From contig JAADFU010000097.1 of NCBI GenBank assembly GCA_013152715.1, forward strand, positions 1,276-65,275: a DNA stretch of 64,000 nt, given 5' to 3'. A model generated the notes under the pieces. That model was not told where the DNA came from, did no database searches, and saw only the letters and a program-made list of their open reading frames with translations. A program made the position numbers and the translations under genes. This document shows positions 5,246-20,538 of the stretch, piece by piece. The stretch's first letter is position 1. The number at the start of each line of letters is the position of its first letter. This DNA is from Calditrichota bacterium (GTDB lineage: Bacteria; Zhuqueibacterota; Zhuqueibacteria; Thermofontimicrobiales; Thermofontimicrobiaceae).

Positions 5246-6308
5246 ATGGTTGGAATAGTAGGTTATGGCACACAAATACCGCGTTATCGGATTCGTGTCG
5301 AGGAAATTGCCAAAGTGTGGGGTTGCCAAAGTGTGGGGCGCAGATGCTGAATCTTATCGTCGGGGCTTGGGTTTGAAGCAAAAATCCATCCCGGCGCCAG
5401 ACGAAGACACAGCGACGCTCGCAGTGAATGCAGCTCGCAATGCCGTATTGCGTGCCGGAATTGATCCGGCGCAAATTGGCGCTATTTATGTGGGGAGTGA
5501 ATCGCATCCCTATGCAGTAAAACCCACGGGTACAATTGTCTCTGCTGCGCTTGGCATGACGCCGCATACCCACACTGCAGATTTGGAATTTGCCTGCAAA
5601 GCCGGTACTGAAGGGCTTTTTATCGCCATGCAGGAAGTAATCGCCGGAGCCATCGAATATGGCCTTGCCATCGGCGCAGATACATCTCAGGGCGCTCCGG
5701 CTGATGCATTAGAATATTCTGCCGCAGCCGGCGCAGCCGCGTTCGTAGTCGGAAATAAAGATTTAGTCGCCGAATTAGTAGATACGCACTGTTTTATGAC
5801 AGACACTCCTGATTTTTGGCGGCGGGAACACGCAAATTACCCGAAACACGGGGGGAGATTCACCGGAGTCCCGGCGTATTTCCGGCACGTCAAAGGGGCT
5901 GCCTGGGCGTTGATGGAAAAAGTAAATATGAAACCGGAAGATATCGATTATGTCATTTTTCACCAACCTAACGGGAAATTTCCGGTAACTGTGGCAAAAC
6001 AGTTGGGTTTTAAGGAAGACCAGTGGAAACACGGACTTTTGTCTCCTACTTTGGGAAACACTTACTCTGGCGCATCGCCCATGGGATTCGCTGCGACGCT
6101 GGATGTGGCAAAACCCGGCGAATTGATCATGTTGGTTTCTTTTGGATCGGGCGCTGGCAGTGACGCTTTTCTTTTTCGAGCCACAGACAGACTCAAGCAC
6201 GTGCGCGAAAAAGCGCCGTTAGTGCGAAAACAATTGGATGATCATATTATTCAGGTTGATTACGGCACTTACGCGAAATTCAGAAAGAAAATTTTGCGCG
6301 CCGAGTAA
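5246..6308 (+). pseudogene. Hydroxymethylglutaryl-CoA synthase (archaeal/bacterial MvaS type), interrupted by a +1 frameshift caused by a 16-bp tandem duplication.
   Basis: AAGGAGA RBS, then ATG at 5246 encoding [26 protein letters not shown], which terminates at a TGA near 5348. The remaining 347 aa (track ORF 5265-6308, ...[28 protein letters not shown]...[11 protein letters not shown]...) lie in the +1 frame. The junction is an exact TTGCCAAAGTGTGGGG x2 repeat at 5307-5338. Confidence 0.8.
5307..5338 (+). repeat. Perfect 16-bp tandem duplication (TTGCCAAAGTGTGGGG x2) inside the HMG-CoA synthase gene.
   Basis: Seen directly in the sequence. The track translation [16 protein letters not shown] confirms both copies are present. 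Confidence 0.85.
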
Positions 6309-6378
6309 TTTTACTTAAAAATGTGCTTGAGTCAATTATGACACGAGAAATTTAAACTCGTTTACAGGAGGTAAATCC

Positions 6379-7536
6379 ATGCGAGAAGTTGCAGTTATCG
6401 GAGTTGGCATGATAAAATGGGGCGAACTCTGGGAAAAATCAATCAGAGATTTATGTGTCGAAGCGGCGTTAAATTGTTTGGACGACGCTGGCGTGGATCG
6501 CTTTGATGCGATCACCGTGGGGACCATGTCCAGCGGATTGTTCGTGGGACAGGAACACCTTTCCGCGATGGTGGCAGATTATCTTGGAAATAAACACGCC
6601 GGAGCAATGCGCGTGGAGTCAGCATGTTCGTCCGGTGGACAGGCAGTGCGAAGTGCGTTTTTGGAAGTGGCGTCGGGCATGGCAGACTATGTGTTGGCGA
6701 TCGGCGTAGAAAAAATGACAGATGTCGATGGCGAGGAAGCGACTTATGCTCTGGCGACCGCAGCAGATCAGGAATGGGAAGTGTTTCACGGCGTGACTTT
6801 TCCCGGACTTTATGCGATGATGGCGCGTCTCCACATGGAACGTTATGGTACGACGCGGGAGCAGCTCGCAGAAGTCGCTGTAAAAAATCATCACAACGGC
6901 AGTTTGAATCCCAATGCGCAATTTCCGTTCGAAGTTACCCGCGAGCACGTGATGTCTTCGACAATGGTAGCGGACCCGCTGCGGTTGTTTGACTGTTCAC
7001 CTATTACCGACGGTGCGGCTGCTGTTTTGCTGGCTCCGTTGGAAGAAGCGAAAAAACTGAAAAAGCATGCTCCCGTGGTCATTTCCGGCGTTGGAAATGC
7101 AACGGATACTATCGCACTGGCGCAACGGAAAGACTTGCTCAAATTAGAAGCAGTTAACCTTTCCATCGAACGCGCGCTAAAAATGGCAAGTCTGAAAATT
7201 GAAGATGTTGATTTTGCCGAAGTGCACGATTGTTTTACAATCGCCGAGTTGATGATTATGGAGTCTATGGGAATTGTGAAAGAAGGAGAGAGCGGCCCGG
7301 CGGTGATGGATGGCATGACTGCTCTTGACGGAAAATTTCCCATCAATCCATCCGGTGGGCTAAAGGCAAAAGGCCATCCGGTAGGCGCGACTGGTGTGGC
7401 GCAGATTTGCGAAGTGGTTACGCAATTGCGCGGTGAAGCCGGAAAACGGCAAATCAAAAACGCGCGTATCGGAATGACACAAAACATGGGAGGCTCAGGC
7501 GCCAGTTCTGTTTCACATATTTTGGAGGTGAAATAA
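6379..7536 (+). CDS. Acetyl-CoA acetyltransferase (thiolase), SCP-x/archaeal type, partner of HMG-CoA synthase.
   Basis: [11 protein letters not shown]...SACSSGG (catalytic Cys block)...[11 protein letters not shown]...[17 protein letters not shown] 8 nt upstream. Confidence 0.85.
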
Positions 7537-7979: not shown

Positions 7980-8212
7980 TTACAAATTTAATCAAATAAT
8001 AATCTCTGGTAATCTGCGAACAGACGGCGTTGGAATCAAAAAAATATTTAAAACCACAACAAACACGAAGCGCACAAAGGATAAATTTGAATTTGTAATT
8101 GTCAATGTATGAATCTCTGTGTCTCCTTCGCGTCCTTTGTGGTTTTAAAATTGATTCGATAGCTCCGATCCGCGTCCCTCCGTGTGCTTATGAAGTAATT
8201 TCGAGGACAAAG

Positions 8213-9592
8213 ATGCCGACAAACCAAAAATTATTCAAACGAATTCTCATCGCCAACCGCGGCGAAGTGGCGCTGCGAATCATTAAGGCCTGTCAGGAAT
8301 CGGGGATTGAAACTGTTGCTGTTTACTCTGAAGCAGACGAGAATTCTCCCCATTTAGAGCAGGCGGATTTTACTGTTTGTATTGGACCTGGTCCCAGCAA
8401 TCAGAGTTATTTGAACAAAGAGGCAATCTTGCAGGCGGCGATAAATTCCGAGTGTCAGGCCGTCCATCCGGGGTTTGGCTTCATGGCTGAAGATGCTCTT
8501 TTTGCCTATATGTGCGAACAGAACAAACTCAGTTTTATAGGCCCTTCGGCAAATTCCATTCGATTGATGGGGAATAAATCTGTCGCAAAAGTGACAATGA
8601 AAAATGCCGGCTTGCCAACCATCCCCGGTAGTGACGGAAATGTAAAAGCTGTGAACGATGCGCTAACTGTCGCGGAAAAAATTGGCTATCCTGTGCTATT
8701 GAAAGCAACTGCCGGCGGCGGAGGCAAAGGTATTCGCCCCTGCAAAAATGAGGCGGAGCTGAAAAATCTGTTCGCGCAAGCGAGTATGGAGGCAGAAAAA
8801 GCCTTCGGCGATCCGGCGCTGTATCTGGAAAAATTGATTCAGCACGGCAGGCATATCGAATTTCAAATTTTAGCTGACTCTTACGGAAACGCCATCCATT
8901 TGGGAGAACGCGAGTGTTCTGTTCAACGAAAAAATCAAAAACTCATCGAAGAATCGCCTTCTCCGGCTGTGGATGACAATTTGCGAAAGAAAATGGGGGG
9001 GATCATCTGCGATGCTGTGGCAAAAATCGGTTATACTAATGCAGGGACAATTGAGTTTTTAATGGATGAAAATAAAAATCTCTATTTTATGGAAATGAAT
9101 ACCCGCTTGCAGGTGGAGCACCCGGTAACAGAGATGATCACCGGATTTGATATTGTGAAAGAGCAAATAAAAATTGCCGCGAATTATCCGCTTTCTTTGA
9201 CGCAAGACGATGTAAATTTTTCGGGTCACGCCATCGAGTGCCGCATCAATGCTGAAGATCCGCAGAATAATTTTTTACCATCGCCGGGCCGGATTACTGA
9301 ATTTGAAATTCCCCAAAACGAGGGTCCGGGAAAAATTCGTGTGGACACACACGTTCGCACAGGATATGAGATTCCCACTTATTATGATTCCATGATTTGC
9401 AAAATAATTGCCTGGGGAGAAACGCGCCAGAATGCAATCGAAACTATGATCAATGCATTGAAAAAATCTTCGATCAAGGGGATTAAAACTACCATTCCTT
9501 TGCATCTGGAGATTTTGTCGCATCCGGATTTTATCAGCGGAAATTATCACACGGCATGGTTAATGAATACGTTTTTTAACGAGGAAAAATAA
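8213..9592 (+). CDS. Biotin carboxylase subunit of an acyl-CoA carboxylase.
   Basis: ILIANRGEVALRI, ATP-grasp motifs, GGGGKG, EMNTRLQVEHPVTE. I place the start at the internal ATG (MPTNQK...), not the track's upstream 8099. Confidence 0.8.
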   Translation: MPTNQKLFKRILIANRGEVALRIIKACQESGIETVAVYSEADENSPHLEQADFTVCIGPGPSNQSYLNKEAILQAAINSECQAVHPGFGFMAEDALFAYMCEQNKLSFIGPSANSIRLMGNKSVAKVTMKNAGLPTIPGSDGNVKAVNDALTVAEKIGYPVLLKATAGGGGKGIRPCKNEAELKNLFAQASMEAEKAFGDPALYLEKLIQHGRHIEFQILADSYGNAIHLGERECSVQRKNQKLIEESPSPAVDDNLRKKMGGIICDAVAKIGYTNAGTIEFLMDENKNLYFMEMNTRLQVEHPVTEMITGFDIVKEQIKIAANYPLSLTQDDVNFSGHAIECRINAEDPQNNFLPSPGRITEFEIPQNEGPGKIRVDTHVRTGYEIPTYYDSMICKIIAWGETRQNAIETMINALKKSSIKGIKTTIPLHLEILSHPDFISGNYHTAWLMNTFFNEEK

Positions 9593-9636
9593 TTTTTAAT
9601 TTTATCGAAACAGGAAGGCAATAGGAGCAGCAGCCA

Positions 9637-11364
9637 ATGGCAAAAGTGATCTTGGAGCGAATTGGTTCGACCATTTCTAATTTTATGGGAGTTGAGGATT
9701 TCAACAAGAATCTGAAAGAGAATGAAAATCTCAATGAGAGATATTTAAAGGCGAGGGAGGAAATTCGCGCTGGTTGGGGGAAAACCTATGTGGAGCGAGT
9801 TCACAGAAAAGGCAAGTTAACCACGTGGGAGCGCATCGAAGCTTTGAAAGATGAGGGCAGCAAAGTTTTCCCCATCGGCACTTTTGTCAACTATGGCATT
9901 GAATTTTTTGACGGAAAGACAAATCGCACCTCGCCCGCGGCAGGTGTAATCACCGCATTCGTGAAAATTGAAGGCAGATACACGGTTGTGATTGCCAATG
10001 ATAACACAGTTGCTTCCGGCGCCTGGTGGCCTTTGACGCCGGAGAAAATTGAACGGGCGCAGGAAATAGCACTGCGGCTGCGGATACCCGTGGTCTATTT
10101 GATCGATTGCAGCGGGCTCTTTTTGCCGGAACAGGCGAAAACATTCCCCGGGAAAACCGGTGCCGGGTATATTTTCAAAATGAATGCTTTGCTCAGCGCC
10201 CAGCAAGTACCGCAAATTGCCGGTGTTTTCGGAGATTGCATTGCCGGCGGCGGATACATGCCAATCATCAGCGATGTGGTTTACATGACTGAACAAGCCT
10301 ACATGGTGATCGCCGGTGCCGCATTGGTAAAGGGGGGCAAAAGTCAAAAAATCACGTCGCTGGACATCGGCGGCCCGGATATCCATGTGCATCTTTCCAA
10401 TTGCGCGGATTTTCGCGTGCCCGATGATCGGGCAGCATTGAAAAAAATTCGTTCTGAAATTGCAAAGTTGCCGACTCCGGCGAATGACTATTATCGCTAC
10501 GGACAGGAACCAGCGCCTCCTCATTTTTCATCAGATGAAATTCCTGGAATTTTGCCTCCTGACCATCGCGTGACCTATGACATGCGTCAGATCATTGCCC
10601 GTATTCTGGATCATAGCTTGTTCTGGGAGCTTTTCCCTCATAAAGGGAAGGAAATCATCTGCGGCGTCGGCAGAATCAATGGAAATTATGTGGGAATTAT
10701 TGCTAACAACGCTTTTCTCACGGATCACCCGGTGCATCGCAGTACACGCCGTCCCGGCGGAATTCTCTATCGCGACGGCATCGCTAAAATGACCAGCTTC
10801 GTGCGCGCCTGTAACGACGATGGAATCCCGCTTATCTGGCTGCAGGACGTGGCGGGATTTGACATCGGACTCGAAGCGGAAAAAATGGGATTGTTGGGTT
10901 ACGGTTCCGATCTTTTGTATTCCATTTCCACTTCCACTAATCCAGTGATTACCGTGCTGCTGCGCAAAGCTTCTGGCGCTGGCTACTATGCAATGAACGG
11001 CAGACCCTACGAGCCGATTGTACAATTTTCCACGCCGTTGACGAGGCTGGCTGTAATGGAAGGCAGAACTCTGGCGATTGGTGCTTATCGCACGAAATTG
11101 GACGATGATTTTAATATTATTTTTACGAATAAGGAAGAATACGAAGCAATTAAGCGAGGGATGGAAGGAGTTGAGCAGCGAATCACGAAAGATATGGATC
11201 CAATTTTATCGGCGCGACAGTTGGATACAGACGAAATTATTCTGCTTCACGAATTGCGGCCTTATTTGGAAACGATGATTGACATGAGCTATCAAAGTAT
11301 TGGCTATCGTCGCGTGAAAAATCCGCGCATCTGGTCGATGCATGATATTAAAGCACTTTATTGA
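9637..11364 (+). CDS. Acyl-CoA carboxylase carboxyltransferase subunit (methylcrotonyl-/propionyl-CoA carboxylase beta-like).
   Basis: 575 aa with both CoA carboxyltransferase N- and C-domains (..GGAYMP.., ..GRINGN..AN...GG). Sits between the biotin carboxylase and BCCP genes. Confidence 0.75.
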
Positions 11365-11978
11365 CGAAACCAAAATCTCTGACAGCAACCAAAGTCGAAG
11401 AGGAAGAGATGATTGCTCTGATTGAAAAAGAAGATTCCCAAATTCGAATTTTATCTCCTGCGGTTGGATTTTATTCTGAAATGCCGCGAGAAAAAACTTT
11501 TGTCACCGGCGGCGCAATGATCGGCAAACTGACTGTATTGAATACGAGTTTTTTTATCTATTTGCCGGAAAATGTGAGTGGAATTGTGAGTTACAGCGAA
11601 TCTCCGGATCGAATTGTCAACGTCGGCTATCGCGATGAACTATTTCGACTGACAGCGGAACAGACGGAGATCGTCCGGCAGATTTCGGGCGCTGAAAAAA
11701 TTGAGAGCAATGATGAATTTGCAGAAAACGGTTTTGTGGTGCGCGCATTTACCACGGGTATTTTTTATCGTAGACCTTCTCCTGACGCCGCGCCTTATGT
11801 GGAAGAAGGTCAGCAAATTGAAAAAGGAAAAGTTCTGGGCTTAATTGAAGTAATGAAGACGTTCAATCACATCATTTTTCAAGGCACGGAAAATTCAAAT
11901 AGTGGAGTAGTCAAAAAAATTCTGGTCCAGGACGGCCAGGAGGTGAAGTTAGATCAGCCGTTGTTTGTTATTAGTTAG
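11361..11978 (+). CDS. Biotin carboxyl carrier protein (biotinyl domain). Start uncertain: TTG at 11361 or ATG at 11409.
   Basis: C-terminal biotinyl-lysine motif [10 protein letters not shown] (the EAMKM family). The TTGA start overlaps the upstream stop. Confidence 0.6.
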
Positions 11979-12061
11979 TGGACACTAAAAATTGAGTGGG
12001 GTTCTGGAAACTAATTTTAATTCTGACTTTTTTATTTTAAAACCTATCATGGGAGGAATCC

Positions 12062-13228
12062 ATGTCGCTAAATTTTGACCTTCCCGAAGAAGCGAACATG
12101 ATTCGCGATACGGTACGTGAGTTCGCCGAGCAAGTGATCAGACCAAAGGCAAAAGAATTGGACGACGCAGAGGAGTTTTCGCCGGAAATCACGCGTCAAT
12201 TGGGCGAGTTGGGATTATTTGGGTTTTGCATTCCTGAAGAATATGGCGGGAACGGCTTTGGATATATTCCTTACATTATCGCTGTAGAAGAATTAGCACG
12301 AGTCGATGGTTCTCAGGCGGCTACGGTGGCGGCTCATAATTCGTTGGGCATCGGGCCTATTTATATTTTTGGAAATGAAGATCAAAAAAGAAAATATTTG
12401 CCTCAGCTCACTACCGGAGAAAAGGTCTGGGCGTTTGGCCTTACGGAACCCAATGCAGGTTCTGATGCTGGCGGGACAAAGACTGTCGCCAAAAAGGAAA
12501 AGGACGGCTGGCGCATTAATGGTTCGAAAATATTTATCACCAACGGTTCAGGAGAAGCCTCGCTGGGAGTGACGGTGCAGGCAGTGACCGGCACCCGTCC
12601 CGATGGGAAAAAAGAATACACTTGCTTTCTGGTCGAACAAGGCACGCCCGGTTTCACGGCAAAAACGATGCATGAAAAAATGATGTGGCGCTCGTCTATT
12701 ACCTCGGAGTTGTTTTTCGAAGACTGCCTTGTGCCGGAAGAAAGCATGCTTGGCAAAAAAGGCGAGGGGTTTCGTCAAATGCTGGACACGCTGGATCGCG
12801 GCAGGCTTTCTATCGCAGCGATGGGACTTGGGTGTGCTCAGGGCGCCTATGAATTAGCGCTGAAATACGCCAAAGAACGAAAACAATTCGGAAAAGCAAT
12901 CTCCACGTTTCAAGCCAATGCTTTCAAATTAGCTGATATGGCAACGGAAATCGAAGCCGCGCGCTATCTTCTCTACCGCGCCGCGTGGCTGTGCGATCAA
13001 AAACGGGACGAATACAAAAAATTAGCGTCCATGGCAAAATTGTACTGCTCAGAAGTGGCGCATCGCTGTGTCAATCAGGCGCTTCAAATTCACGGCGGCT
13101 ACGGTTTGATGAAAGAGTACGATATCGAGCGATTTTATCGCGACCAGCGCTTGCTGGAAATCGGCGAAGGAACCTCTGAAATTTTACGATTGGTCATTTC
13201 CAGAAGAATTGGGTGTTATGATGTTTGA
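12062..13228 (+). CDS. Acyl-CoA dehydrogenase. By context, isovaleryl-CoA / short-branched-chain acyl-CoA dehydrogenase.
   Basis: ACAD N/M/C domains with GLTEPNAGSD and QIHGGYG motifs. GGAGG-like RBS. Confidence 0.8.
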   Translation: MSLNFDLPEEANMIRDTVREFAEQVIRPKAKELDDAEEFSPEITRQLGELGLFGFCIPEEYGGNGFGYIPYIIAVEELARVDGSQAATVAAHNSLGIGPIYIFGNEDQKRKYLPQLTTGEKVWAFGLTEPNAGSDAGGTKTVAKKEKDGWRINGSKIFITNGSGEASLGVTVQAVTGTRPDGKKEYTCFLVEQGTPGFTAKTMHEKMMWRSSITSELFFEDCLVPEESMLGKKGEGFRQMLDTLDRGRLSIAAMGLGCAQGAYELALKYAKERKQFGKAISTFQANAFKLADMATEIEAARYLLYRAAWLCDQKRDEYKKLASMAKLYCSEVAHRCVNQALQIHGGYGLMKEYDIERFYRDQRLLEIGEGTSEILRLVISRRIGCYDV

Positions 13229-13263
13229 AAAATTAGAACCCAGTTATTTTCGAAAATAGTTTT

Positions 13264-13336
13264 TTCAATCTAGACATCCCCCCTGTCCCCCCTTCAAAGG
13301 GGGGAACTCTAAAAGTCCCCCTTTGAAGGGGGATTT
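13264..13336. terminator. GC-rich nested palindromic element (two CCCCCC-loop-GGGGGG hairpins inside an outer ACATCCCCC/GGGGGATGT stem). Likely an intrinsic terminator or attenuator between the acyl-CoA dehydrogenase and enoyl-CoA hydratase genes.
   Basis: Inverted repeats 13264-13272 / 13328-13336, 13277-13282 / 13289-13294 and 13307-13311 / 13318-13322. A related C-rich motif lies at ~47178. Confidence 0.45.
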
Positions 13337-13391
13337 AGGGGGATGTTCAAAGCTAGTCTGAACAAGCAAAAACATAAATTTTGAGGCTTTT

Positions 13392-14180
13392 ATGCAAAAA
13401 AAATTTCAGACCATTCGTTATCATATCGAAAATAAAGCAATCACCATTTGGCTGAACAGGCCTGATGTGCACAATGCCTTTAACTCGACCATGCTGAAAG
13501 AATTGTCGGAAATTCTGGAATGGATCGCAGGATCGGACGAGGTGCGCGTGGTCATTTTTACCGGAGAGGGAAAATCTTTTTCAGCCGGCGCTGATTTGAA
13601 TTGGATGAAAGAGATCATCAATTATACTTACGAAGAAAATTTGCAGGATTCTGAGCTTATTTCTCAAGTGTTTTATTTGATTTACACCTGTCCCAAGCCA
13701 GTGATTGCTGCCATAAACGGCGCTGCTGTCGGAGGCGGTATGGGATTTGTCGCCGCGTCAGACATCGTCATTGCTTCTGAACGGGCGAAATTCAGTCTGT
13801 CTGAAGTCAAAATCGGACTGGTTCCTTCCTGCATTTCTCCGTATCTGTTCAAAAAGGTCGGCGAAGGAGCGCTAAAAGAATTATTCATTTCAGGAATGCG
13901 TTTTGGCCCGGACAAGGCGCTAAAGATTAATTTGATCAATTATGTTGTTGAACATGAAAAGCTGCTCGATTTTGCGCAGGAGAAAGCCCGAGAATTGCTG
14001 GTCTGCGGTCCCCAAGCCATTGCTATTTGTAAAAAATTATTTTTCGAAGTTCAGGAAATGGATTTGCAAACAGCTTATCACTACACAGCGGATTTGATTG
14101 CAAAAATGAGAATTTCCGACGAAGCACAGGAAGGCATGCACGCATTTTTGGAAAAGAGAAAACCCAATTGGCATCCCTAA
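13392..14180 (+). CDS. Enoyl-CoA hydratase/isomerase (crotonase family). By context, 3-methylglutaconyl-CoA hydratase-like.
   Basis: Crotonase fold motifs (AAINGAAVGGG, oxyanion hole region). 262 aa. Confidence 0.75.
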   Translation: MQKKFQTIRYHIENKAITIWLNRPDVHNAFNSTMLKELSEILEWIAGSDEVRVVIFTGEGKSFSAGADLNWMKEIINYTYEENLQDSELISQVFYLIYTCPKPVIAAINGAAVGGGMGFVAASDIVIASERAKFSLSEVKIGLVPSCISPYLFKKVGEGALKELFISGMRFGPDKALKINLINYVVEHEKLLDFAQEKARELLVCGPQAIAICKKLFFEVQEMDLQTAYHYTADLIAKMRISDEAQEGMHAFLEKRKPNWHP

Positions 14181-14263
14181 AAACTTCATTATAAATCGGA
14201 AGAGGGGTCTAAAAAACAGGTGAATTATTTTTTAACAAACTCTAATTTAAAGAGGAGGATCGT

Positions 14264-14926
14264 ATGATCAAAAAGGCCAATCAAGCATTATCAGCAGTAC
14301 TCTTCATCACATTTATCTTTTTTCTCTCTACGGCTAACGCTCAACAAGCTCCGGTTGCACAGGATGTTGGTCTTTTGGATGTGGAATACTCAAGCTTGAC
14401 CAAGCAAGTCTGTCAGGATTGTCATGGCACCTCTCTCGCCGATACCCATCATGAAACGCAAATTGCTCAATCCGGGCAGTGTGTCACCTGTCATAGTGTC
14501 TCAACCACTCCCGGACAAATGGGGGTTGTTCTGCAAAGGGACTGTATGAAATGTCATACAGAGACTCCGCATCATAAGACCGAAGCGGCGCTTAATAACG
14601 AATGTACTAATTGCCACGATAGTCCGGGGCTGAATGATTACAGCACTTCTGTTGCGACCTACCCTGTTTCTATGGTTACTCCGGCTGTGGCAAATTGTAA
14701 AAAATGCCATGATAACGGAGAGGCTGCAGGGCTTCAGGTTGTAGATTTCAAGGAAACTCATCATGGAATTTCCATTGATAATTGTGACATCTGCCATGAA
14801 GGAACCGAAACTAAAACAACAAACATTCGGATCTGCGAAAGATGCCATAACCAGGAAGTCATTCACCAGGTCGCTCCTCATATTGAAGCACAAAATTGTG
14901 TTGTATGCCATCTGACTAAAAAATAA
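14264..14926 (+). CDS. Secreted octaheme c-type cytochrome (small multiheme cytochrome).
   Basis: Signal peptide MIKKANQALSAVLFITFIFFLSTANA. Eight CxxCH motifs (CQDCH, CVTCH, CMKCH, CTNCH, CKKCH, CDICH, CERCH, CVVCH) in 220 aa. AGGAGG RBS. Confidence 0.85.
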   Translation: MIKKANQALSAVLFITFIFFLSTANAQQAPVAQDVGLLDVEYSSLTKQVCQDCHGTSLADTHHETQIAQSGQCVTCHSVSTTPGQMGVVLQRDCMKCHTETPHHKTEAALNNECTNCHDSPGLNDYSTSVATYPVSMVTPAVANCKKCHDNGEAAGLQVVDFKETHHGISIDNCDICHEGTETKTTNIRICERCHNQEVIHQVAPHIEAQNCVVCHLTKK

Positions 14927-15458
14927 CGCATGGCGTGCTCATGAAATTTGAGTGAGACGAGCAAATTTTAACCCTGGCGGGGCGCCAGTCACGAATTTAA
15001 TTATAAAAATTAATCAATTCATTACCGATTCACCTGTTTCGTCCGTGCTGGCACCCGCTGGATTTTTAATTTTTTCTTAATTTTTGGTAACAGCGTTTTT
15101 TTTGGTAATTTTACTCACGAAATTTTTGTGAATTTCTCTGTTATCCGCCAAATGTTGAACGAATTTTAATAAAAGCGAGGAGGATATCAGGCTATTTCGG
15201 AATTAGAACCGACTTTATTCTTTGGTAAAATGAAGACTGATTAAATCTACATTAGCCACTATCTCGTCCTTTCGGGACTTAGAAGAGTCTGGTGCAAAAG
15301 CTGAGTTTCAAAAGAACGAGATACGGGAAATTGTCAGAACATTTTTTATTATAGAATACCAAAATTAAAATTGAATAGACCGCAACCTTCGCATCGAAGA
15401 AAAACCAGAATTTATTAAGTCATTTTTTGACTTTAAAGATAAACCATGAGGAGGAAAA

Positions 15459-16601
15459 ATGGATTATTTGTTGACCGAAGAGCAAAAAATGCTCCGAGAA
15501 ATGGTATCCAAATTTGCCAAGGAAGAAATTGCGCCTGTGGCTTCTGAAAATGAGGATAAGGAGATATATCCGGAAAATATTGTACAACAATTGGGCGAAT
15601 TGGGGATAATGGGCATTGCTTATCCTGAGGAGTACGGCGGCGCCGGGATGGATTACGTTTCTTACATGCTGGCTGTGGAAGCAATTTCTCAGTATTGCGC
15701 ATCGACAGGAGTAATTGTCTCTGCGCATTCGTCTCTGGCAGTGGATCCCATTTTTCGTTTTGGCACTGAAGAACAGAAAAAGAAATATCTGCCTGACATG
15801 TGTTCCGGGAAAAAGATCGGTTGCCATGCGCTGACTGAACCAGGTGCGGGATCCGATGCAGGCGCGGTAAAAACAACAGCGAAATTAGAGGGCGATAAAT
15901 GGGTGCTTAATGGTACAAAACACTTCATCACCAATGGCGCGAATGCGGATGTAGCAGTGGTCTTTGCTTCCACTGACATGGAACAAAAACACCACGGCAT
16001 CAGTGCTTTTATCGTGGAAAAGGGCACTCCCGGATTTCGCGTGGGGAAATTAGAAAATAAATTAGGCATCCGCGCATCGACGACAGCGGAATTGATTTTC
16101 GAAGATTGCGCCATTCCCAAAGAAAATTTGCTCGGCGAGCTCAATAAAGGTTTTAAAATAGCCATGATCACGCTGGATGGCGGCAGACTGGGAATAGCGT
16201 CACAAGCGCTGGGGATTGCCAAGGCGGCAATTGAGGATTCGGTTGCTTACGCTAAAGAGCGTCAGCAATTTGGCCAGCCCATTGCTAAATTTCAGGCGAT
16301 TCAGTGGATGATTGCCAATATGACAACTGAATATGAAGCAGCCTGGCTTTTGACCTATCGGGGATCTGTGATGAAAGATAAAGGCCTGCGCTACTCAAAA
16401 GAGGCGGCAATGGCAAAGTTAAAAGCTTCGGAGACAGCATCTTTTTGTGCCAACAAAGCAATACAAATTCACGGTGGCTACGGTTTCATCAAAGATTTCC
16501 CTGTGGAACGTTATCTCAGGGATGCCAAAATTACGGAAATTTACGAGGGCACCAATGAAATTATGCGAATTGTGATTTCTGCAAATATGTTGAGAGATTA
16601 G
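15459..16601 (+). CDS. Acyl-CoA dehydrogenase (butyryl-/isobutyryl-CoA dehydrogenase-like).
   Basis: ACAD domains with ALTEPGAGSD and QIHGGYG. GAGGAGG RBS. Lies upstream of icmF. Confidence 0.8.
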   Translation: MDYLLTEEQKMLREMVSKFAKEEIAPVASENEDKEIYPENIVQQLGELGIMGIAYPEEYGGAGMDYVSYMLAVEAISQYCASTGVIVSAHSSLAVDPIFRFGTEEQKKKYLPDMCSGKKIGCHALTEPGAGSDAGAVKTTAKLEGDKWVLNGTKHFITNGANADVAVVFASTDMEQKHHGISAFIVEKGTPGFRVGKLENKLGIRASTTAELIFEDCAIPKENLLGELNKGFKIAMITLDGGRLGIASQALGIAKAAIEDSVAYAKERQQFGQPIAKFQAIQWMIANMTTEYEAAWLLTYRGSVMKDKGLRYSKEAAMAKLKASETASFCANKAIQIHGGYGFIKDFPVERYLRDAKITEIYEGTNEIMRIVISANMLRD

Positions 16602-16612
16602 ATTTATCAAGT

Positions 16613-16641
16613 CCTTTCAAATGTTCGAGACCTTTGAAAGG
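16613..16641 (+). terminator. Hairpin (CCTTTCAAA / TTTGAAAGG) after the acyl-CoA dehydrogenase stop. Weak intrinsic-terminator candidate.
   Basis: 9-bp stem, 11-nt loop, no clear U-tract. Confidence 0.3.
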
Positions 16642-16684
16642 GTAAATTAGCGTGAAAAGAAAATATATCTTTTAAGGAGGAGAA

Positions 16685-19600
16685 TTGAACCACATAAGAG
16701 TCATCACAGCAGCGGCGTTATTCGACGGGCATGACGTTTCCATAAATATTTTCAGAAAATTGATGCAAAAACGCGGCGCGGAAGTCATCCATTTAGGTCA
16801 TAATCGCTCGGTGCGTGAAGTAGTTACTACTGCCATTCAGGAAGATGCCGACGCCATACTTGTCAGTTCTTATCAGGGCGGACACAATGAATTTTTCCGC
16901 TACATGGTGGACAAACTCAAAGAATCGCACGCGGAAAGAATTATGGTCTTCGGCGGCGGCGGCGGCGTGATTTTGCCGTCGGAAATTGAAGCCCTGGAAA
17001 CCTACGGCGTGGAACGATTGTACCATGCGCTCGACGGACAAAAATTGGGCATCGACGGTATTGCTGACGACATCATCAAACGCATTCACAAACGAAAATC
17101 AGCGGAAAAGCAGTTGTTCGGCAAATTCATTGGCGAAAAAGTAATTGAGGGAAATTCACCTAAAAATCATTTGACGATTGCGCAGCAGATTTCATTTTTT
17201 GAGGATCACATCGGCGAAAAACAAATCACGACGCCAATTTTAGAAAAATTGCAGCAGCACGACAAAGGAAAATCTGTAGTGCTCGGCGTTACCGGTACTG
17301 GCGGCAGCGGCAAAAGCTCGCTCATCGACGAACTGGTGAATCGTTTCCTGAAAATTGTGCCGGACATGACCATCGGAATTCTGACTGTGGACCCGTCAAA
17401 GCGAATTTCCGGCGGCGCGCTGTTAGGCGACCGCATTCGCTACAACAACATTTATGACGATCGCGTTTATTTTCGCAGCTTTGCCACACGGGAGTCTGCC
17501 AGTGAAATCAGTCTCGCGCTCACCGACGCCATCGCCGTGCTCAAAAGCTGTGGCTTTGACGTCATCTTTGTGGAAACCAGCGGCATTGGTCAGGGCGACA
17601 GTCAGGCGGTGGATGTGAGTGATTTTTCCGCTTATGTGATGACTTCGGAGTACGGCGCCCCGTCGCAGTTGGATAAAATCGACATGCTGGAAATTGCCAA
17701 CTACATTGTGATCAACAAATTTGAAAAGCCGGGCTCTGAAGACGCCATGCGCGAAGTGATGATCAATTACATTCGCAATCATGGCGTGAAAGTGTCGCAT
17801 CGCGAATCTCTGTTTGAACTCGATTTGCCGGTTTACGGAACCAGCAGTAACCAATTCAACAATCACGGCGTCAACCGTCTTTTTAAAGATTTGCTTGATT
17901 TAATTTTGAAGCAAAATAAGAAAAAATATCAGATAAAAGAAAATCTGCTGAAAATTTTACCGACAAAATTGGAGTTCGAGTACGGCCTCATCCACAGCCG
18001 ACGCGTGAATTATTTGACGGAAATTGCCGACACCGTGCGTAAATATCACGAGCGCGCCAGGCAGGAATCGGAGCTTGCCGGTAAATGTTACAGTTTGAAA
18101 AAAAGCATGGATTTGATCGAAGATGCAGCCATAAAAGAAACGCTACACCAAAAATTTGATGAGCTTTGGAAAAAATTGTCCCAGCAGTCAAAAGATTTTC
18201 TGGAAAATTGGCTTGAATTGAAAGAGCGCTATCAGCAGAAAAAATTTCGCTACAGAGTGCGGCATCGGGAAATTGAAGTGGATTTATTCAATCGCTCGCT
18301 TTCCGGCTTGAATATCCCGAAAGTAACGCTGCCGAATTTTTCCGATTGGGAAGAGTTGCTCAAATTTTATTACAAAGAAAATTTGCCGGGCTGTTTTCCT
18401 TACACCGGTGCTGTTTATCCCTTTCGCCGCACCGGAGAGGATCCGCGACGCCAATTTGCTGGTGAAGGCAGCGCAAAAAGAACGAACAAGCGTTTTCATT
18501 ATTTGACCAGAGATGACCGCGCCAAACGGCTTTCCGTGGCGTTCGACGGCATCACGCTCTACGGCGAAGATCCGGCGACGGAACCGGACATTTACGGCAA
18601 AATCGGTGAAAGCGGCGTAAGCATTTGTACCATCGATGACATGGATCAACTGCTGGAAGGCTTCGATCAAACCGATGCGTTGACTTCAGTGTCCATGACC
18701 ATCAATGCCCCGGCGCCAATTATGTTGGCGATGTATTTCATGGTTGCGTTTCGCCGGGAATTGAAAAAAGCAGAAGCGCAAGGCAGAAAATTGTCCTCTG
18801 AAGAAAAAGAAAAATTAAAAATTGAAACATTCCGCAAATTGCGCGGCACTGTTCAGGCAGACATTTTGAAAGAAGACCAGGGGCAGAACACCTGCATTTT
18901 TTCCGTCGATTTTGCCATGAAATTGATTGGCGATGTGCAGGAATATTTTTCTAAAAATGATATTCGAAATTATTATTCAATCAGTATCAGCGGCTATCAC
19001 ATCGCTGAAGCCGGCGCCAATCCGATCACGCAGTTGGCTTTTACCCTGGCGAATGGCTTTACTTATGTGGAGTATTTTTTAAATCGCGGTTTAAAAATCG
19101 ATCAGTTTGCGCCGAATTTGTCCTTCTTTTTCAGCAATGGAATGGAACCGGAATATGCCGTCATCGGACGCGTTGCCCGGCGAATCTGGGCTATTGCCAT
19201 CAGAGATTTGTATGGCGGAAATGAGCGGAGTCAAAAGTTAAAATACCACATTCAAACATCCGGTCGGTCTCTACACGCACAGGAAATTGAATTAAACGAC
19301 ATCCGCACGACGCTACAAGCCTTGATGGCTTATTACGATAATTGCAATTCTTTGCACACCAACTCCTATGACGAAGCGATCACTACGCCGACTGAGGAAT
19401 CAGTGCGCCGCTCAGTAGCGATTCAGATGATTCTTGCCAATGAGATGGGAATGGTGAAAAACGAAAATCCCAATCAAGGATCTTTTATCATTGAACAGCT
19501 TACCGATTTGGTGGAAGAGGCGATATTGAATGAATTTCATCGTATTTCACGACGCGGTGGCGTGCTTGGAGCGATGGAAAAGCAATACCAACGCTCGAAA

Positions 19601-19942
19601 ATCCAGGAAGAGTCTCTCTATTATGAGGATTTGAAGCAGTCCGGCGAATATCCGATTATAGGCGTGAATAAATTCGTGCGTGAGACAGGGGAGACGCCGT
19701 ACGACAATATGAATATTACCCGCGCCAGCGATCAGGAAAAGCAAGGAATTCTTGAAAATTTGACATCGTTCCAGTCAGAAAATCAGTCCGGAGCAAAAGA
19801 GGCGCTGGAACGACTGCGCGAAACAGCGCTGGCGAACGGGAATGTTTTTGAGGAACTGCTCAATACTGTCGAGCGCGCATCTCTGGGACAAATTACGCAT
19901 GTGTTGTACGAAGTTGGCGGGAAATATCGGAGAGGAATCTGA
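16685..19942 (+). CDS. icmF: Fused isobutyryl-CoA mutase IcmF (B12-binding domain + MeaB-like G-protein + mutase substrate domain).
   Basis: N-terminus ...[34 protein letters not shown]...VSSYQGGH matches the IcmF B12 domain. P-loop [12 protein letters not shown] of the MeaB GTPase. ~500-aa C-terminal mutase domain. TTG start with AAGGAGG 6 nt upstream. Confidence 0.85.
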   Translation: [1085 protein letters not shown]

Positions 19943-20022
19943 GCAAAATTCGCGTAGGTGTGGCACACCTTTAAGCTGTACTACACCTTGGCTGCTTTTA
20001 CAAAATCACGAAAGGGAACCGA

Positions 20023-20538
20023 ATGACTCAAGCTGACAGAATCGAAGACCTGTCAAAGGATGAGCTTTTTCAACTATTGAACATTTACGCTAAAAACTGG
20101 CTCGCTCACGATGGCTGCTGGTTTCTTTCGGTAGAGGAAAAATTCGGTCTGGAAGAGGCCATCGACCGCGATCGGGAGAGTTGGCGAAAATTTACTGTCG
20201 TTGAAGCAAAACGACTGATTGATTTTTTGGGGCTGCCGCCGAATTCAGGAATTTCAGGACTGGCGCGCGCTTTGAAATTTCGTTTGTACTCGAAATTGAA
20301 TGAAGATGAAATTTTCATCGATGGAAATGTACTGGAATATCGCGTACGCACCTGCCGCGTGCAGGCAGCGCGGCGCCGCAAAAAACTGCCCGATTTTCCG
20401 TGCAAATCCGTTGGCATTGTGGAGTACGGATTGTTCGCCAAAACAATTGATGAACGATTCGAGACCGAGGCGGTCAGTTGTCCGCCAGAAATTACGAATG
20501 AAGATTATTATTGCATCTGGCGATTTACGTTGAAGTGA
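20023..20538 (+). CDS. Conserved hypothetical cysteine-containing cytosolic protein (possibly ATC-hydrolase-like). Function unknown.
   Basis: 171-aa ORF with no signal peptide. The family assignment is tentative. Confidence 0.45.
   Translation: MTQADRIEDLSKDELFQLLNIYAKNWLAHDGCWFLSVEEKFGLEEAIDRDRESWRKFTVVEAKRLIDFLGLPPNSGISGLARALKFRLYSKLNEDEIFIDGNVLEYRVRTCRVQAARRRKKLPDFPCKSVGIVEYGLFAKTIDERFETEAVSCPPEITNEDYYCIWRFTLK

What the first reader, a model, noticed from the sequence alone, without database searches (positions are those of the whole stretch)
14264..14926. Secreted 8-heme c-type cytochrome embedded in an acyl-CoA oxidation cluster
The 220-aa protein has a signal peptide and eight CxxCH motifs, giving roughly one heme per 25 residues. 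It is unusual to find this between an enoyl-CoA hydratase and an acyl-CoA dehydrogenase/IcmF pair in an FCB-type genome. It could wire electrons from acyl-CoA oxidation (via ETF/quinone) to a periplasmic or extracellular acceptor.
Basis: seen in the sequence. Interest (0 to 1): 0.55.

Follow-up and report, generated by a model that had tools for sequence, protein, structure and literature searches.

The report
Minimal OmcZ-type eight-heme cytochrome
The gene encodes a small exported eight-heme protein that is a stripped-down relative of OmcZ, the protein that builds electrically conductive "nanowires" in Geobacter, and it appears to have been inserted by chance into a leucine/fatty-acyl-CoA breakdown gene cluster, not to work with it.

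Summary
Window 14264-14926(+) encodes a 220-aa protein with a Sec-type signal peptide and eight CxxCH motifs. It lies between an enoyl-CoA hydratase and an acyl-CoA dehydrogenase/IcmF pair in a Calditrichota MAG.

It is not a generic c3/c7/NrfB cytochrome. Sequence, profile and predicted fold all match only OmcZ, the Geobacter octaheme nanowire cytochrome. All eight heme motifs and eight distal histidines are colinear with OmcZ. The protein ends 4 residues after the eighth motif, about where the protease OzpA cuts OmcZ. It has no IPT/TIG pro-domain. No subtilisin-type protease motifs appear in the window or in 22 homologue loci.

The proposed link to acyl-CoA oxidation is poorly supported.
- About 16 distinct homologue contexts in 28 loci (Aminicenantes, Spirochaetota, Poribacteria, Desulfobacterales) contain no acyl-CoA genes.
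- Only one sister lineage shares the arrangement.
- The next relatives carry an unrelated T9SS-secreted protein gene in the same slot.
- Elsewhere the gene sits beside other multiheme cytochromes.

Best reading: a cell-envelope electron-transfer module in a lineage-specific insertion slot, possibly co-transcribed with the upstream operon. Whether this naturally "pre-cut" OmcZ core forms filaments is open.

The parts
14264..14926 (+). CDS of the 220-aa octaheme c-type cytochrome: an OmcZ-fold core with no pro-domain
   Evidence: ORF. 8 CxxCH, 16 Cys and 16 His. PDB profile hit to OmcZ 8d9m at E 3e-24. AF2 pLDDT 88 with Foldseek matching only OmcZ.
14264..14341 (+). Signal peptide, residues 1-26, with predicted cleavage at ANA|QQ
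   Evidence: Read from the sequence. All family members have an equivalent hydrophobic N-terminus and no Cys before the first heme motif. 6 of the 15 amino-acid differences from the sister lineage fall here. No predictor was run.
14181..14263 (+). 83-bp spacer between the ECH stop and the cytochrome start. It contains GGAGG at 14254-14258. No terminator was detected, so read-through from the upstream operon is possible.
   Evidence: The spacer length and most of its sequence are conserved in sister lineage L040/L041.
14974..15061 (+). Long-range stem (14974-14989 pairs with 15047-15061) enclosing a conserved interior of about 57 nt, followed by a T-rich run at 15063-15110. Probably a terminator or 3'-end element of the cytochrome transcript.
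   Evidence: Single-sequence fold (z = -1.5, not significant alone). Two-lineage consensus of 14 pairs with 2 compensatory changes. The interior motif is unique in the window. No Rfam match. The simple scan flags 15048-15061 plus a T-run.
14927..15458 (.). 532-bp AT-rich (GC 0.36) intergenic gap before ACAD2. It holds no convincing ORF and no remnant of an OmcZ-type pro-domain.
   Evidence: It is not conserved with the equivalent gaps of L030/L034.
8099..14180 (+). Context only: upstream catabolic genes on the same strand. They are biotin carboxylase, carboxyltransferase, BCCP, acyl-CoA dehydrogenase and enoyl-CoA hydratase (methylcrotonyl-CoA carboxylase-type leucine module).
   Evidence: Pfam. 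Conserved without the cytochrome in L034.
15459..20538 (+). Context only: downstream block of acyl-CoA dehydrogenase, IcmF (B12-binding/MeaB/mutase fusion) and DUF6125.
   Evidence: Pfam. The same block follows a T9SS-tailed protein gene in L030/L034.

Best explanation
The gene encodes a stand-alone OmcZ-fold octaheme cytochrome. It is exported by Sec, and its signal peptide is removed after residue 26. The 194-aa mature protein binds eight c-type hemes, each with two intramolecular histidine ligands. Together these form a closely packed heme chain like the one in the OmcZ subunit.

It corresponds to the protease-matured OmcZs core. It ends 4 residues after the eighth heme motif, and it has no IPT/TIG 'self-inhibitory' pro-domain and no partner OzpA protease.

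I infer that it works as a general electron-transfer module of the cell envelope, carrying electrons from inner-membrane quinol oxidation towards outer-surface cytochromes or acceptors. Its oligomeric state is unknown. I do not think it is a dedicated outlet for acyl-CoA oxidation.

Its position between ECH and ACAD2/IcmF is a lineage-specific insertion into a variable slot between two conserved catabolic blocks. It may be read through from the upstream operon and end at its own stem plus T-run.

Shown: the heme motifs, the homology and predicted fold, the absence of a pro-domain and of protease motifs, and the synteny pattern. Inferred: location, redox partners and transcription.
For: Identity
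- The single sequence hits only OmcZ structures strongly: 7lq5 at E 5e-14 and 8d9m at E 1.7e-13, with the next hit (PpcA) at E 0.13.
- The family profile gives 8d9m at E 3e-24 and 7lq5 at E 5e-23, with the next hit (MtrF) at E 4e-8.
- 8D9M and 7LQ5 are the OmcZ nanowire structures.
- The alignment with the OmcZ fragment and long homologues shows all 8 motifs, the three HH pairs and H201 in the same order. OmcZ's CX14CH aligns with the window's canonical C73VTCH77.
- In a 66-sequence superfamily alignment, all 16 Cys and all 16 His are invariant or at least 90% conserved.
- The AF2 model built on that alignment has pLDDT 88.3 and pTM 0.71.
- Foldseek against the PDB returns only OmcZ: 8d9m at E 1e-8, probability 1.00, TMq 0.63; and 7lq5 at E 1e-7. 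Nothing else is below E 5.
- The OmcZ fold had no other structural neighbours when it was solved (PMC9473688).

Architecture
- OmcZ is cut by OzpA after FGNSS at residue 284, 8 residues past its eighth motif. The window protein stops 4 residues past its own eighth motif.
- Long relatives carry 2-3 IPT/TIG domains.
- No remnant of such domains lies downstream of the short genes.
- An S8-protease motif scan found none in the window or in 22 short-family loci. It did find one 1.2 kb downstream of a distant canonical homologue in Trichloromonas, which served as a positive control.

Selection
- Against the sister lineage there are 57 synonymous and 15 non-synonymous codon differences. The gene is 88% nt identical, compared with 81-82% for the flanking genes.

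Context elsewhere
- The closest homologue (65% identity) follows two giant multiheme cytochromes. This parallels ANME OmcZ homologues that sit next to enormous multiheme cytochromes (PMC9012536).
- In five Aminicenantes contexts the gene lies within 1-5 kb of a cluster of two cytochromes, an NHL-repeat protein and a ~650-aa protein.

Synteny against the acyl-CoA link.
Against: No experiment exists on any member of the short family. Heme occupancy, location, partners and oligomeric state are all inferred.

The window holds no other cytochrome, no ccm genes, no quinol dehydrogenase and no outer-membrane conduit.

The arrangement ECH-83 bp-cytochrome is retained in a sister lineage whose flanks are only about 81% nt identical. 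Co-expression with leucine catabolism may therefore be real and selected.

The protein lacks a T9SS sorting domain, although this organism's secreted proteins usually carry one. That argues for a periplasmic location and against a surface one, but it does not settle the question.
Confidence: 0.62

Rival explanations
1. It is a naturally 'pre-cut' OmcZ subunit. Once exported, it self-assembles without any protease into conductive extracellular (or periplasm-spanning) cytochrome filaments. This would be a minimal nanowire of 194-aa subunits.
For: It has the same fold and heme-ligand pattern as the filament subunit. It ends where OzpA cleavage creates the assembly-competent OmcZs. The C-terminal domain of OmcZ is thought to hinder filament formation sterically, and OmcZs assembles on its own after cleavage (PMC12307469; preprint 10.64898/2026.07.18.739370). 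An engineered OmcZ with a canonical CxxCH in place of CX14CH, as in this protein, still forms nanowires. The three histidine pairs said to tighten heme packing are invariant. The closest homologue sits beside giant multiheme cytochromes, as ANME OmcZ homologues do.
Against: The mature protein is 64 residues shorter than OmcZs, and four loops are missing. Whether these loops form the subunit interface could not be checked, because no coordinates and no multimer prediction were available. There is no secretion signal beyond Sec and no T9SS tail. [quoted passage not shown] Uncontrolled polymerisation in the periplasm would probably be harmful.
Confidence: 0.2
2. One reading: the cytochrome is a dedicated electron outlet for the flanking acyl-CoA dehydrogenases. 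Electrons would pass through ETF and quinone to a periplasmic or extracellular acceptor, with co-regulation as part of the catabolic operon.
For: It is on the same strand, only 83 bp after ECH, with no terminator between them. The arrangement and the spacer are conserved in sister lineage L040/L041, and the gene is under purifying selection there. Amino-acid oxidation in an anaerobe needs an electron sink (general reasoning).
Against: None of 28 homologue loci has any acyl-CoA gene within 8-10 kb. The next relatives of the cluster have an unrelated T9SS-tailed protein gene in the same slot, and more distant relatives have no slot at all. No ETF, ETF-QO or quinol-oxidising cytochrome gene was found among the window ORFs scanned. 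A periplasmic cytochrome cannot accept electrons directly from cytoplasmic ACADs. A 532-bp gap with a conserved stem plus T-run separates it from ACAD2/IcmF.
Confidence: 0.1
3. It is a generic small periplasmic multiheme cytochrome of the c3/c7, NrfB or OmaB type. On this view the resemblance to OmcZ is only shared CxxCH spacing.
For: The Pfam hits are to the generic models Cytochrome_C7, Cytochrom_c3_2 and MtrC/MtrF II-IV. The weak NCBIfam hits are all far below their cut-offs.
Against: The OmcZ match is 16 or more orders of magnitude better than the match to any other solved cytochrome. Conservation extends to non-heme positions, with Q33, G36, D39, A109, T139, P140, R189 and E192 at least 90% conserved across the superfamily. 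The predicted fold matches only OmcZ.
Confidence: 0.03

Closest known systems
OmcZ (GSU2076) of Geobacter sulfurreducens, the octaheme nanowire cytochrome (PDB 7LQ5, 8D9M)
   Same: Both have eight c-type heme motifs in the same order. The same eight distal histidines are present, including three HH pairs. The N-terminal Q-x-x-G-x-x-D segment is conserved. The predicted fold matches only OmcZ. Both use a signal-peptidase-I type signal.
   Different: Sequence identity is about 23-26%. The window protein has a canonical CxxCH where OmcZ has CX14CH. Its mature form is 64 residues shorter, with four loops missing. It has no C-terminal IPT/TIG pro-domain. No adjacent ozpA protease or prolyl isomerase was found. 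Filament formation is unknown.
OmcZ homologues of ANME-2 / 'Ca. Methanoperedens' and their Borg elements
   Same: They belong to the same superfamily. Some Borg copies also lack the non-canonical heme motif. ANME copies lie next to giant multiheme cytochromes, as does the closest homologue of the window protein.
   Different: Those are full-length precursors with beta-strand-rich C-terminal domains, and they sit in conserved omcZ-ozpA-isomerase clusters. The window family has neither feature.
Long OmcZ-like proteins of 450-900 aa with 7-8 CxxCH found in the exhaustive search (e.g. P0057, P0059, P0103)
   Same: Their N-terminal octaheme module is alignable over its full length. P0057 and P0059 share the compact loops of the window family.
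   Different: They carry 2-3 IPT/TIG domains after the eighth motif. Complete short forms of 270 aa or less account for only about 4 of the best 150 clusters at 50% identity.
Triheme cytochrome c7 (PpcA family) and MtrC/MtrF domains II/IV
   Same: Both use bis-His c-type hemes with local CxxCH spacing that the same Pfam models pick up.
   Different: The matches are only marginal: PpcA at E 0.13 and MtrF at E 4e-8, against 3e-24 for OmcZ. The heme number and fold also differ.
Outer-membrane cytochrome clusters of Desulfovibrio ferrophilus IS5 (multiheme cytochromes plus NHL beta-propeller proteins)
   Same: The Aminicenantes neighbourhood of the short OmcZ genes has the same composition: two small multiheme cytochromes plus an NHL-repeat protein (PMC5815863).
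   Different: This is a resemblance of composition only, and homology was not tested. No such cluster is present in this window.

Membership tests
OmcZ superfamily (OmcZ-fold octaheme cytochromes) | Eight heme-binding motifs in the OmcZ order and spacing | tested here: met
   All eight motifs are colinear with G. sulfurreducens OmcZ and with long homologues. The second motif is CxxCH where OmcZ has CX14CH. That variant occurs naturally in Borg homologues and is tolerated in engineered OmcZ.
OmcZ superfamily (OmcZ-fold octaheme cytochromes) | All hemes bis-His, with both ligands from the same subunit (8 distal His, including the His pairs) | tested here: met
   At sequence level only. The protein has exactly 16 His. 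Eight are in CxxCH motifs and eight are elsewhere (62, 63, 103, 104, 166, 167, 201, 206). All are invariant in the family and at least 90% conserved in the superfamily. The OmcZ ligation pattern is from PMC9473688. Actual ligation was not observed.
OmcZ superfamily (OmcZ-fold octaheme cytochromes) | Significant sequence similarity to OmcZ beyond the heme motifs | tested here: met
   Profile against the PDB gives E 3e-24 and 5e-23. The single sequence gives E 5e-14. Conserved non-heme positions are listed.
OmcZ superfamily (OmcZ-fold octaheme cytochromes) | OmcZ three-dimensional fold | tested here: met
   Predicted structure only. AF2 gives pLDDT 88.3. Foldseek hits only 8d9m and 7lq5, with probability 1.00 and TMq 0.63 and 0.52. 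The model contains no hemes.
OmcZ nanowire assembly system (omcZ-ozpA-prolyl isomerase) | C-terminal beta-sandwich (IPT/TIG) pro-domain that blocks assembly until it is cleaved | tested here: not met
   The protein ends 4 residues after motif 8. It has no TIG hit, while long relatives have 2-3 TIG domains. No remnants lie downstream.
OmcZ nanowire assembly system (omcZ-ozpA-prolyl isomerase) | Linked subtilisin-like protease OzpA and prolyl isomerase | tested here: not met
   No S8 catalytic motifs appear in the 64-kb window or in 22 short-family loci. The positive control in L026 was found. No protease or isomerase Pfam family appears among the neighbours listed or among the window ORFs scanned. 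The rest of the genome was not searchable.
OmcZ nanowire assembly system (omcZ-ozpA-prolyl isomerase) | Polymerisation into conductive extracellular filaments | not testable with these tools
   This needs expression plus EM or conductivity measurements, or at least a multimer prediction with hemes.
Cytochrome c7 / c3 (class III) family | Tri- or tetraheme domain reaching the curated family threshold and having the c3/c7 fold | tested here: inconclusive
   Pfam Cytochrome_C7 scores 43.9 bits (cut-off 24.8), split over 4 short stretches. Cytochrom_CIII is below its cut-off. Neither the PDB comparison (PpcA E 0.13) nor the fold search supports a c7/c3 fold.
OmcA/MtrC, DmsE, NrfH, QrcA, TmcA (NCBIfam models) | Score above the curated cut-off | tested here: not met
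   The best is TIGR03507 at 23.3 bits against a cut-off of 209.3. All others are lower.
Leucine/branched-chain acyl-CoA catabolic operon (as a functional component) | Conserved co-occurrence with the pathway genes across lineages | tested here: not met
   0 of 28 homologue loci contain acyl-CoA genes. The arrangement is present only in sister lineage L040/L041. In L029, L030 and L034 the slot holds a different gene.

The most novel reading that the evidence does not exclude
The short family is a natural, protease-independent OmcZ nanowire subunit. It would be a 194-aa, eight-heme building block that polymerises without a pro-domain, OzpA or a linked isomerase. It occurs in Calditrichota, Aminicenantes, Spirochaetota, Poribacteria and Desulfobacterales. 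That would extend OmcZ-type conductive filaments to phyla where none are known, and it would provide a minimal scaffold for engineered protein wires.
Probability: 0.18. Interest if true: 0.8.

Novelty: new variant of a known kind. Interest (0 to 1): 0.55.

Why it matters
OmcZ is described as the most conductive of the known cytochrome nanowires. In Geobacter its assembly is thought to be gated by proteolytic removal of a C-terminal domain. The papers I could read describe only full-length precursors in omcZ-ozpA-isomerase clusters.

A conserved family that consists of the heme core alone, under purifying selection and spread over at least five phyla, poses a directly testable question. One possibility is that the OmcZ core is intrinsically a polymer, so that these organisms make wires without a protease switch. 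The other is that this is the soluble, non-filamentous form of the fold from which nanowires evolved.

Either answer informs how cytochrome wires evolved and how small a wire subunit can be. For genome annotation, these proteins are currently labelled 'hypothetical' or 'cytochrome c3 family'. They could be re-labelled as OmcZ-like.

The result also warns against inferring function from gene position. The ECH-ACAD2 junction is a slot that holds different secreted-protein genes in different lineages.

Tried and rejected
- The first AF2 run used the shallow 42-sequence family alignment and gave pLDDT 60.5. Its Foldseek hits were meaningless. This was superseded by the 66-sequence superfamily alignment.
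- Gu et al. 2023 (PMC9999484) is not held. Its claims are therefore cited second-hand through.
- Rfam gave no match in the window at gathering thresholds, and none in 14900-15480 at E<=1.
- The sigma-70 promoter and terminator consensus scans found no more sites than shuffled sequence, so they cannot decide transcription units.
- The single-sequence fold of the downstream region was not significant on its own, with z = -1.5.
- The intergenic regions are not conserved with L030/L034.
- Composition and codon usage of the cytochrome gene are native-like: GC 0.443 and a CAI-like value of 0.768, within the range of the neighbours. There is therefore no compositional evidence of recent transfer.
- I considered using giant multiheme proteins with repeated weak matches to the profile (P0077, P0174 and others) as 'covalent polymer' evidence for head-to-tail stacking. 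The per-repeat scores are weak (5-27 bits) and may reflect CxxCH/His richness, so I did not use them.
- The two-module proteins P0047 and P0053 have TIG domains between modules, so they do not show direct module stacking either.
- The window's MAG is not among the GTDB representative genomes scanned, so ccm genes, ozpA or other cytochromes elsewhere in the genome could not be looked for.
Full report
OBSERVATION

The ORF at 14264-14926(+) is real. It starts at an ATG, with GGAGG 5 nt upstream, and encodes 220 aa. Eight CxxCH motifs begin at residues 50, 73, 94, 114, 145, 174, 191 and 212. The protein has exactly 16 Cys and 16 His, so no Cys lies outside the eight motifs and exactly eight His remain as possible distal ligands. 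In all six frames of the 64-kb window, only one other open frame contains even one CxxCH. The N-terminus (MIKK / hydrophobic stretch / TANA|QQ) looks like a signal-peptidase-I substrate with no lipobox. This was judged by inspection only. The mature protein is 194 aa, or 24 residues per heme.

Upstream are biotin carboxylase, carboxyltransferase, BCCP, an acyl-CoA dehydrogenase and an enoyl-CoA hydratase. Downstream are a second acyl-CoA dehydrogenase, IcmF and DUF6125. The identical protein is NOZ61640.1 (GXO74_08150) from a Calditrichaeota MAG. T9SS sorting domains and PorV-like genes in the window fit an FCB-group organism.

WHAT IT IS

Pfam gives only generic multiheme models (Cytochrome_C7, c3_2, MtrC/MtrF II-IV). 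No NCBIfam model comes near its cut-off.

The solved-structure comparison is specific.
- The single sequence hits 7lq5_A (E 5e-14) and 8d9m_A (E 1.7e-13). The next hit is PpcA at E 0.13.
- A profile of 42 family members gives E 3e-24 and 5e-23. The next is MtrF at 4e-8.
- 8D9M and 7LQ5 are the two cryo-EM structures of the Geobacter sulfurreducens OmcZ nanowire.

I aligned the protein with the OmcZ fragment printed by HMMER and with long homologues. All eight heme motifs, three His-His pairs and H201 are colinear. OmcZ's atypical CX14CH corresponds to the window's ordinary C73VTCH77. In a 66-sequence superfamily alignment, all 16 Cys and 16 His are invariant or at least 90% conserved. So are the non-heme positions Q33, G36, D39, A109, T139, P140, R189 and E192.

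OmcZ has all eight hemes bis-His ligated from within one subunit (PMC9473688). The window protein has exactly the histidines needed for that pattern.

AF2 on the shallow family alignment failed, with pLDDT 60. On the superfamily alignment it gave pLDDT 88.3 and pTM 0.71. Foldseek against the PDB then returned only OmcZ: 8d9m at E 1e-8, probability 1.00, TMq 0.63; and 7lq5 at E 1e-7. Everything else was above E 5. The OmcZ fold had no structural neighbours when it was solved, so this match is specific.

HOW IT DIFFERS FROM OmcZ

OmcZ is made as a ~50-kDa precursor. The subtilisin-like protease OzpA removes the C-terminal part, cutting after FGNSS at residue 284, which is 8 residues past the eighth heme motif. 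The 30-kDa core then self-assembles.

The window protein simply stops 4 residues after its eighth motif. It has no IPT/TIG domain. The long relatives I tested all carry 2-3 such domains. The AT-rich DNA downstream of the short genes holds no remnant of such a domain. The mature protein is 64 residues shorter than OmcZs because four loops are missing.

A motif scan for S8 proteases found none in the window or in 22 loci of the short family. It did find one 1.2 kb downstream of a distant, canonical homologue in a Trichloromonas MAG. No prolyl isomerase or protease family appears among the neighbours of eight homologues.

An exhaustive profile search found 530 cluster representatives at E<=1e-3 and 235 at E<=1e-10. 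Most are 450-900 aa with 7-8 CxxCH. Complete short forms account for only about four of the best 150 clusters. The short form is therefore a minority architecture of a large OmcZ-like superfamily. I found no description of it in the OmcZ papers I could read.

IS IT LINKED TO ACYL-CoA OXIDATION?

Forward test. I collected 28 loci encoding homologues, representing about 16 distinct contexts. Named sources include Aminicenantes, Spirochaetota, Poribacteria and Desulfobacterales. tblastn with all eleven catabolic proteins of the window found no hit at E<=1e-5 in any of them.

Reverse test. I fetched the closest relatives of the cluster through the hydratase.
- L040 (GCA_054040075.1) and L041 are a sister lineage, with 70-95% aa identity in the flanking proteins (most 86-95%) and about 81% nt identity in ECH and ACAD2. 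They have the same ECH-83 bp-cytochrome-gap-ACAD2 arrangement.
- L029, L030 and L034 are the next relatives (ECH 79-82%, ACAD2 85-87%, IcmF about 77%). In exactly that slot they carry a 517-524-aa protein with a signal peptide and a T9SS sorting tail, unrelated to the cytochrome.
- L036 and L037 are more distant, and there ECH is followed directly by the biotin carboxylase.

The ECH/ACAD2 junction is therefore a variable slot that has taken up different secreted-protein genes. The cytochrome insertion is confined to a narrow clade. Within that clade it is maintained: 57 synonymous against 15 non-synonymous codon differences, six of them in the signal peptide, and 88% nt identity against 81-82% for its neighbours. 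Its composition is native-like.

Other points bear on the link.
- No ETF, ETF-QO, quinol dehydrogenase, ccm gene or other cytochrome is present among the window ORFs scanned.
- Upstream, the 83-bp spacer has no terminator and is conserved in the sister lineage. Read-through from the leucine operon is therefore possible.
- Downstream, a 532-bp AT-rich gap precedes ACAD2. It contains a 14-bp long-range stem (14974-14989 / 15047-15061) followed by a T-run. The sister lineage conserves this stem with two compensatory pair changes. With only two lineages this is suggestive, not proven.

Taken together, the cytochrome may be the last gene of the upstream transcript. It is insulated from ACAD2/IcmF, and comparative data give no support for a dedicated mechanistic link.

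WHERE THE FAMILY DOES SIT

The closest homologue outside the clade (65% identity; L001-L003) lies directly downstream of two giant multiheme cytochromes of 1492 and 1250 aa. This echoes ANME archaea, where OmcZ homologues sit next to enormous multiheme cytochromes (PMC9012536).

In five distinct Aminicenantes contexts the gene is always within 1-5 kb of a cluster of two small multiheme cytochromes, an NHL-repeat protein and a ~650-aa protein. TPR and two-component regulator genes are usually nearby, although the other genes are rearranged. That composition resembles the outer-membrane cytochrome clusters of Desulfovibrio ferrophilus (PMC5815863). The resemblance is of composition only, and homology was not tested.

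In Spirochaetota and Desulfobacterales the gene is solitary among unrelated genes. The only recurring association is thus with other extracellular-electron-transfer-type cytochromes.

MECHANISM I COMMIT TO

The protein is exported by Sec, matured with eight bis-His hemes, and acts as a compact heme chain moving electrons through the cell envelope. The window itself shows neither the donor nor the acceptor. I put about 0.6 on this 'general envelope electron-transfer module in an incidental insertion slot' reading.

I put about 0.2 on the more exciting variant, in which the naturally pro-domain-less core polymerises into OmcZ-type filaments without a protease.
- For it: the protein ends where cleavage makes OmcZ assembly-competent. 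A canonical-motif OmcZ still forms wires. The His pairs are conserved.

A generic c3/c7-type reading is essentially excluded.

VERDICT

The protein is a new architectural variant of a known kind, a stand-alone OmcZ-fold core. Interest is moderate to high for specialists in extracellular electron transfer, because one expression experiment would show whether a protease-independent minimal OmcZ wire exists.

Noticed in passing
window 14974-15110 (and L040 8711-8800): A 14-bp long-range stem encloses a strongly conserved interior of about 57 nt (TTAATCAATTCA..GATTCACCTG, unique in the window) and is followed by a T-run. The sister lineage keeps it with two compensatory pair changes. There is no Rfam match. 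It could be an unusual terminator or a 3'-UTR/regulatory RNA element.
   Followed up: partly
L030 8860-10413; L034 8911-10485; L029 (same slot): In the next-closest relatives, the ECH-ACAD2 slot holds a 517-524-aa secreted protein with a T9SS C-terminal sorting domain and no other recognisable domain. The junction between the two catabolic blocks is therefore a hotspot for insertion of secreted-protein genes.
   Followed up: partly
L004, L008/L009, L012-L014, L016, L017 (Aminicenantes): A conserved cluster lies next to the short OmcZ gene. It comprises a ~650-aa protein with no Pfam hit, a 216-aa multiheme cytochrome, an NHL/DUF5128 protein and a 202-aa cytochrome, plus a TPR protein and usually a histidine kinase and response regulator. 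By composition it is a candidate extracellular-electron-transfer complex.
   Followed up: partly
L001-L003, 1-7539: Two giant multiheme cytochromes lie directly upstream of the closest short OmcZ homologue. One is 1492 aa with a Laminin_G_3 domain, and the other is 1250 aa. tblastn detected no OmcZ-like module in them.
   Followed up: partly
P0077 (2378 aa, 88 CxxCH), P0174 (3274 aa, 129 CxxCH), P0085, P0151: These giant cytochromes match most of the octaheme profile repeatedly, with a period of about 190-215 aa. The per-repeat scores are weak. They may be tandem arrays of OmcZ-like modules, or the matches may be an artefact of CxxCH richness.
   Followed up: partly
L026 9416-12654 (Trichloromonas MAG): A distant OmcZ homologue has a subtilisin-type (S8) protease ORF 1.2 kb downstream. 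This is the canonical omcZ-ozpA layout, and I used it as the positive control for the protease scan.
   Followed up: no
window 440-2821: A He_PIG / PKD / T9SS-tailed protein gene has GC 0.31 and GC3 0.24, against 0.43-0.51 for the other genes measured. It may be recently acquired.
   Followed up: no
L040 1222-1791: The sister lineage has a Y1_Tnp (IS200/IS605-type) transposase gene between the thiolase/ChsH2-like genes and the biotin carboxylase gene. No ORF of at least 150 aa lies at the corresponding place in the window.
   Followed up: no
window 5265-7536 and 20023-20538: Upstream of the carboxylase genes is a pair of thiolase-like genes: one of the ACP_syn_III_C/Thiolase_N type and one with Thiolase_N plus Thiolase_C_1. 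A conserved DUF6125 gene always follows IcmF in the relatives. DUF6125 may be a functional partner of IcmF.
   Followed up: no
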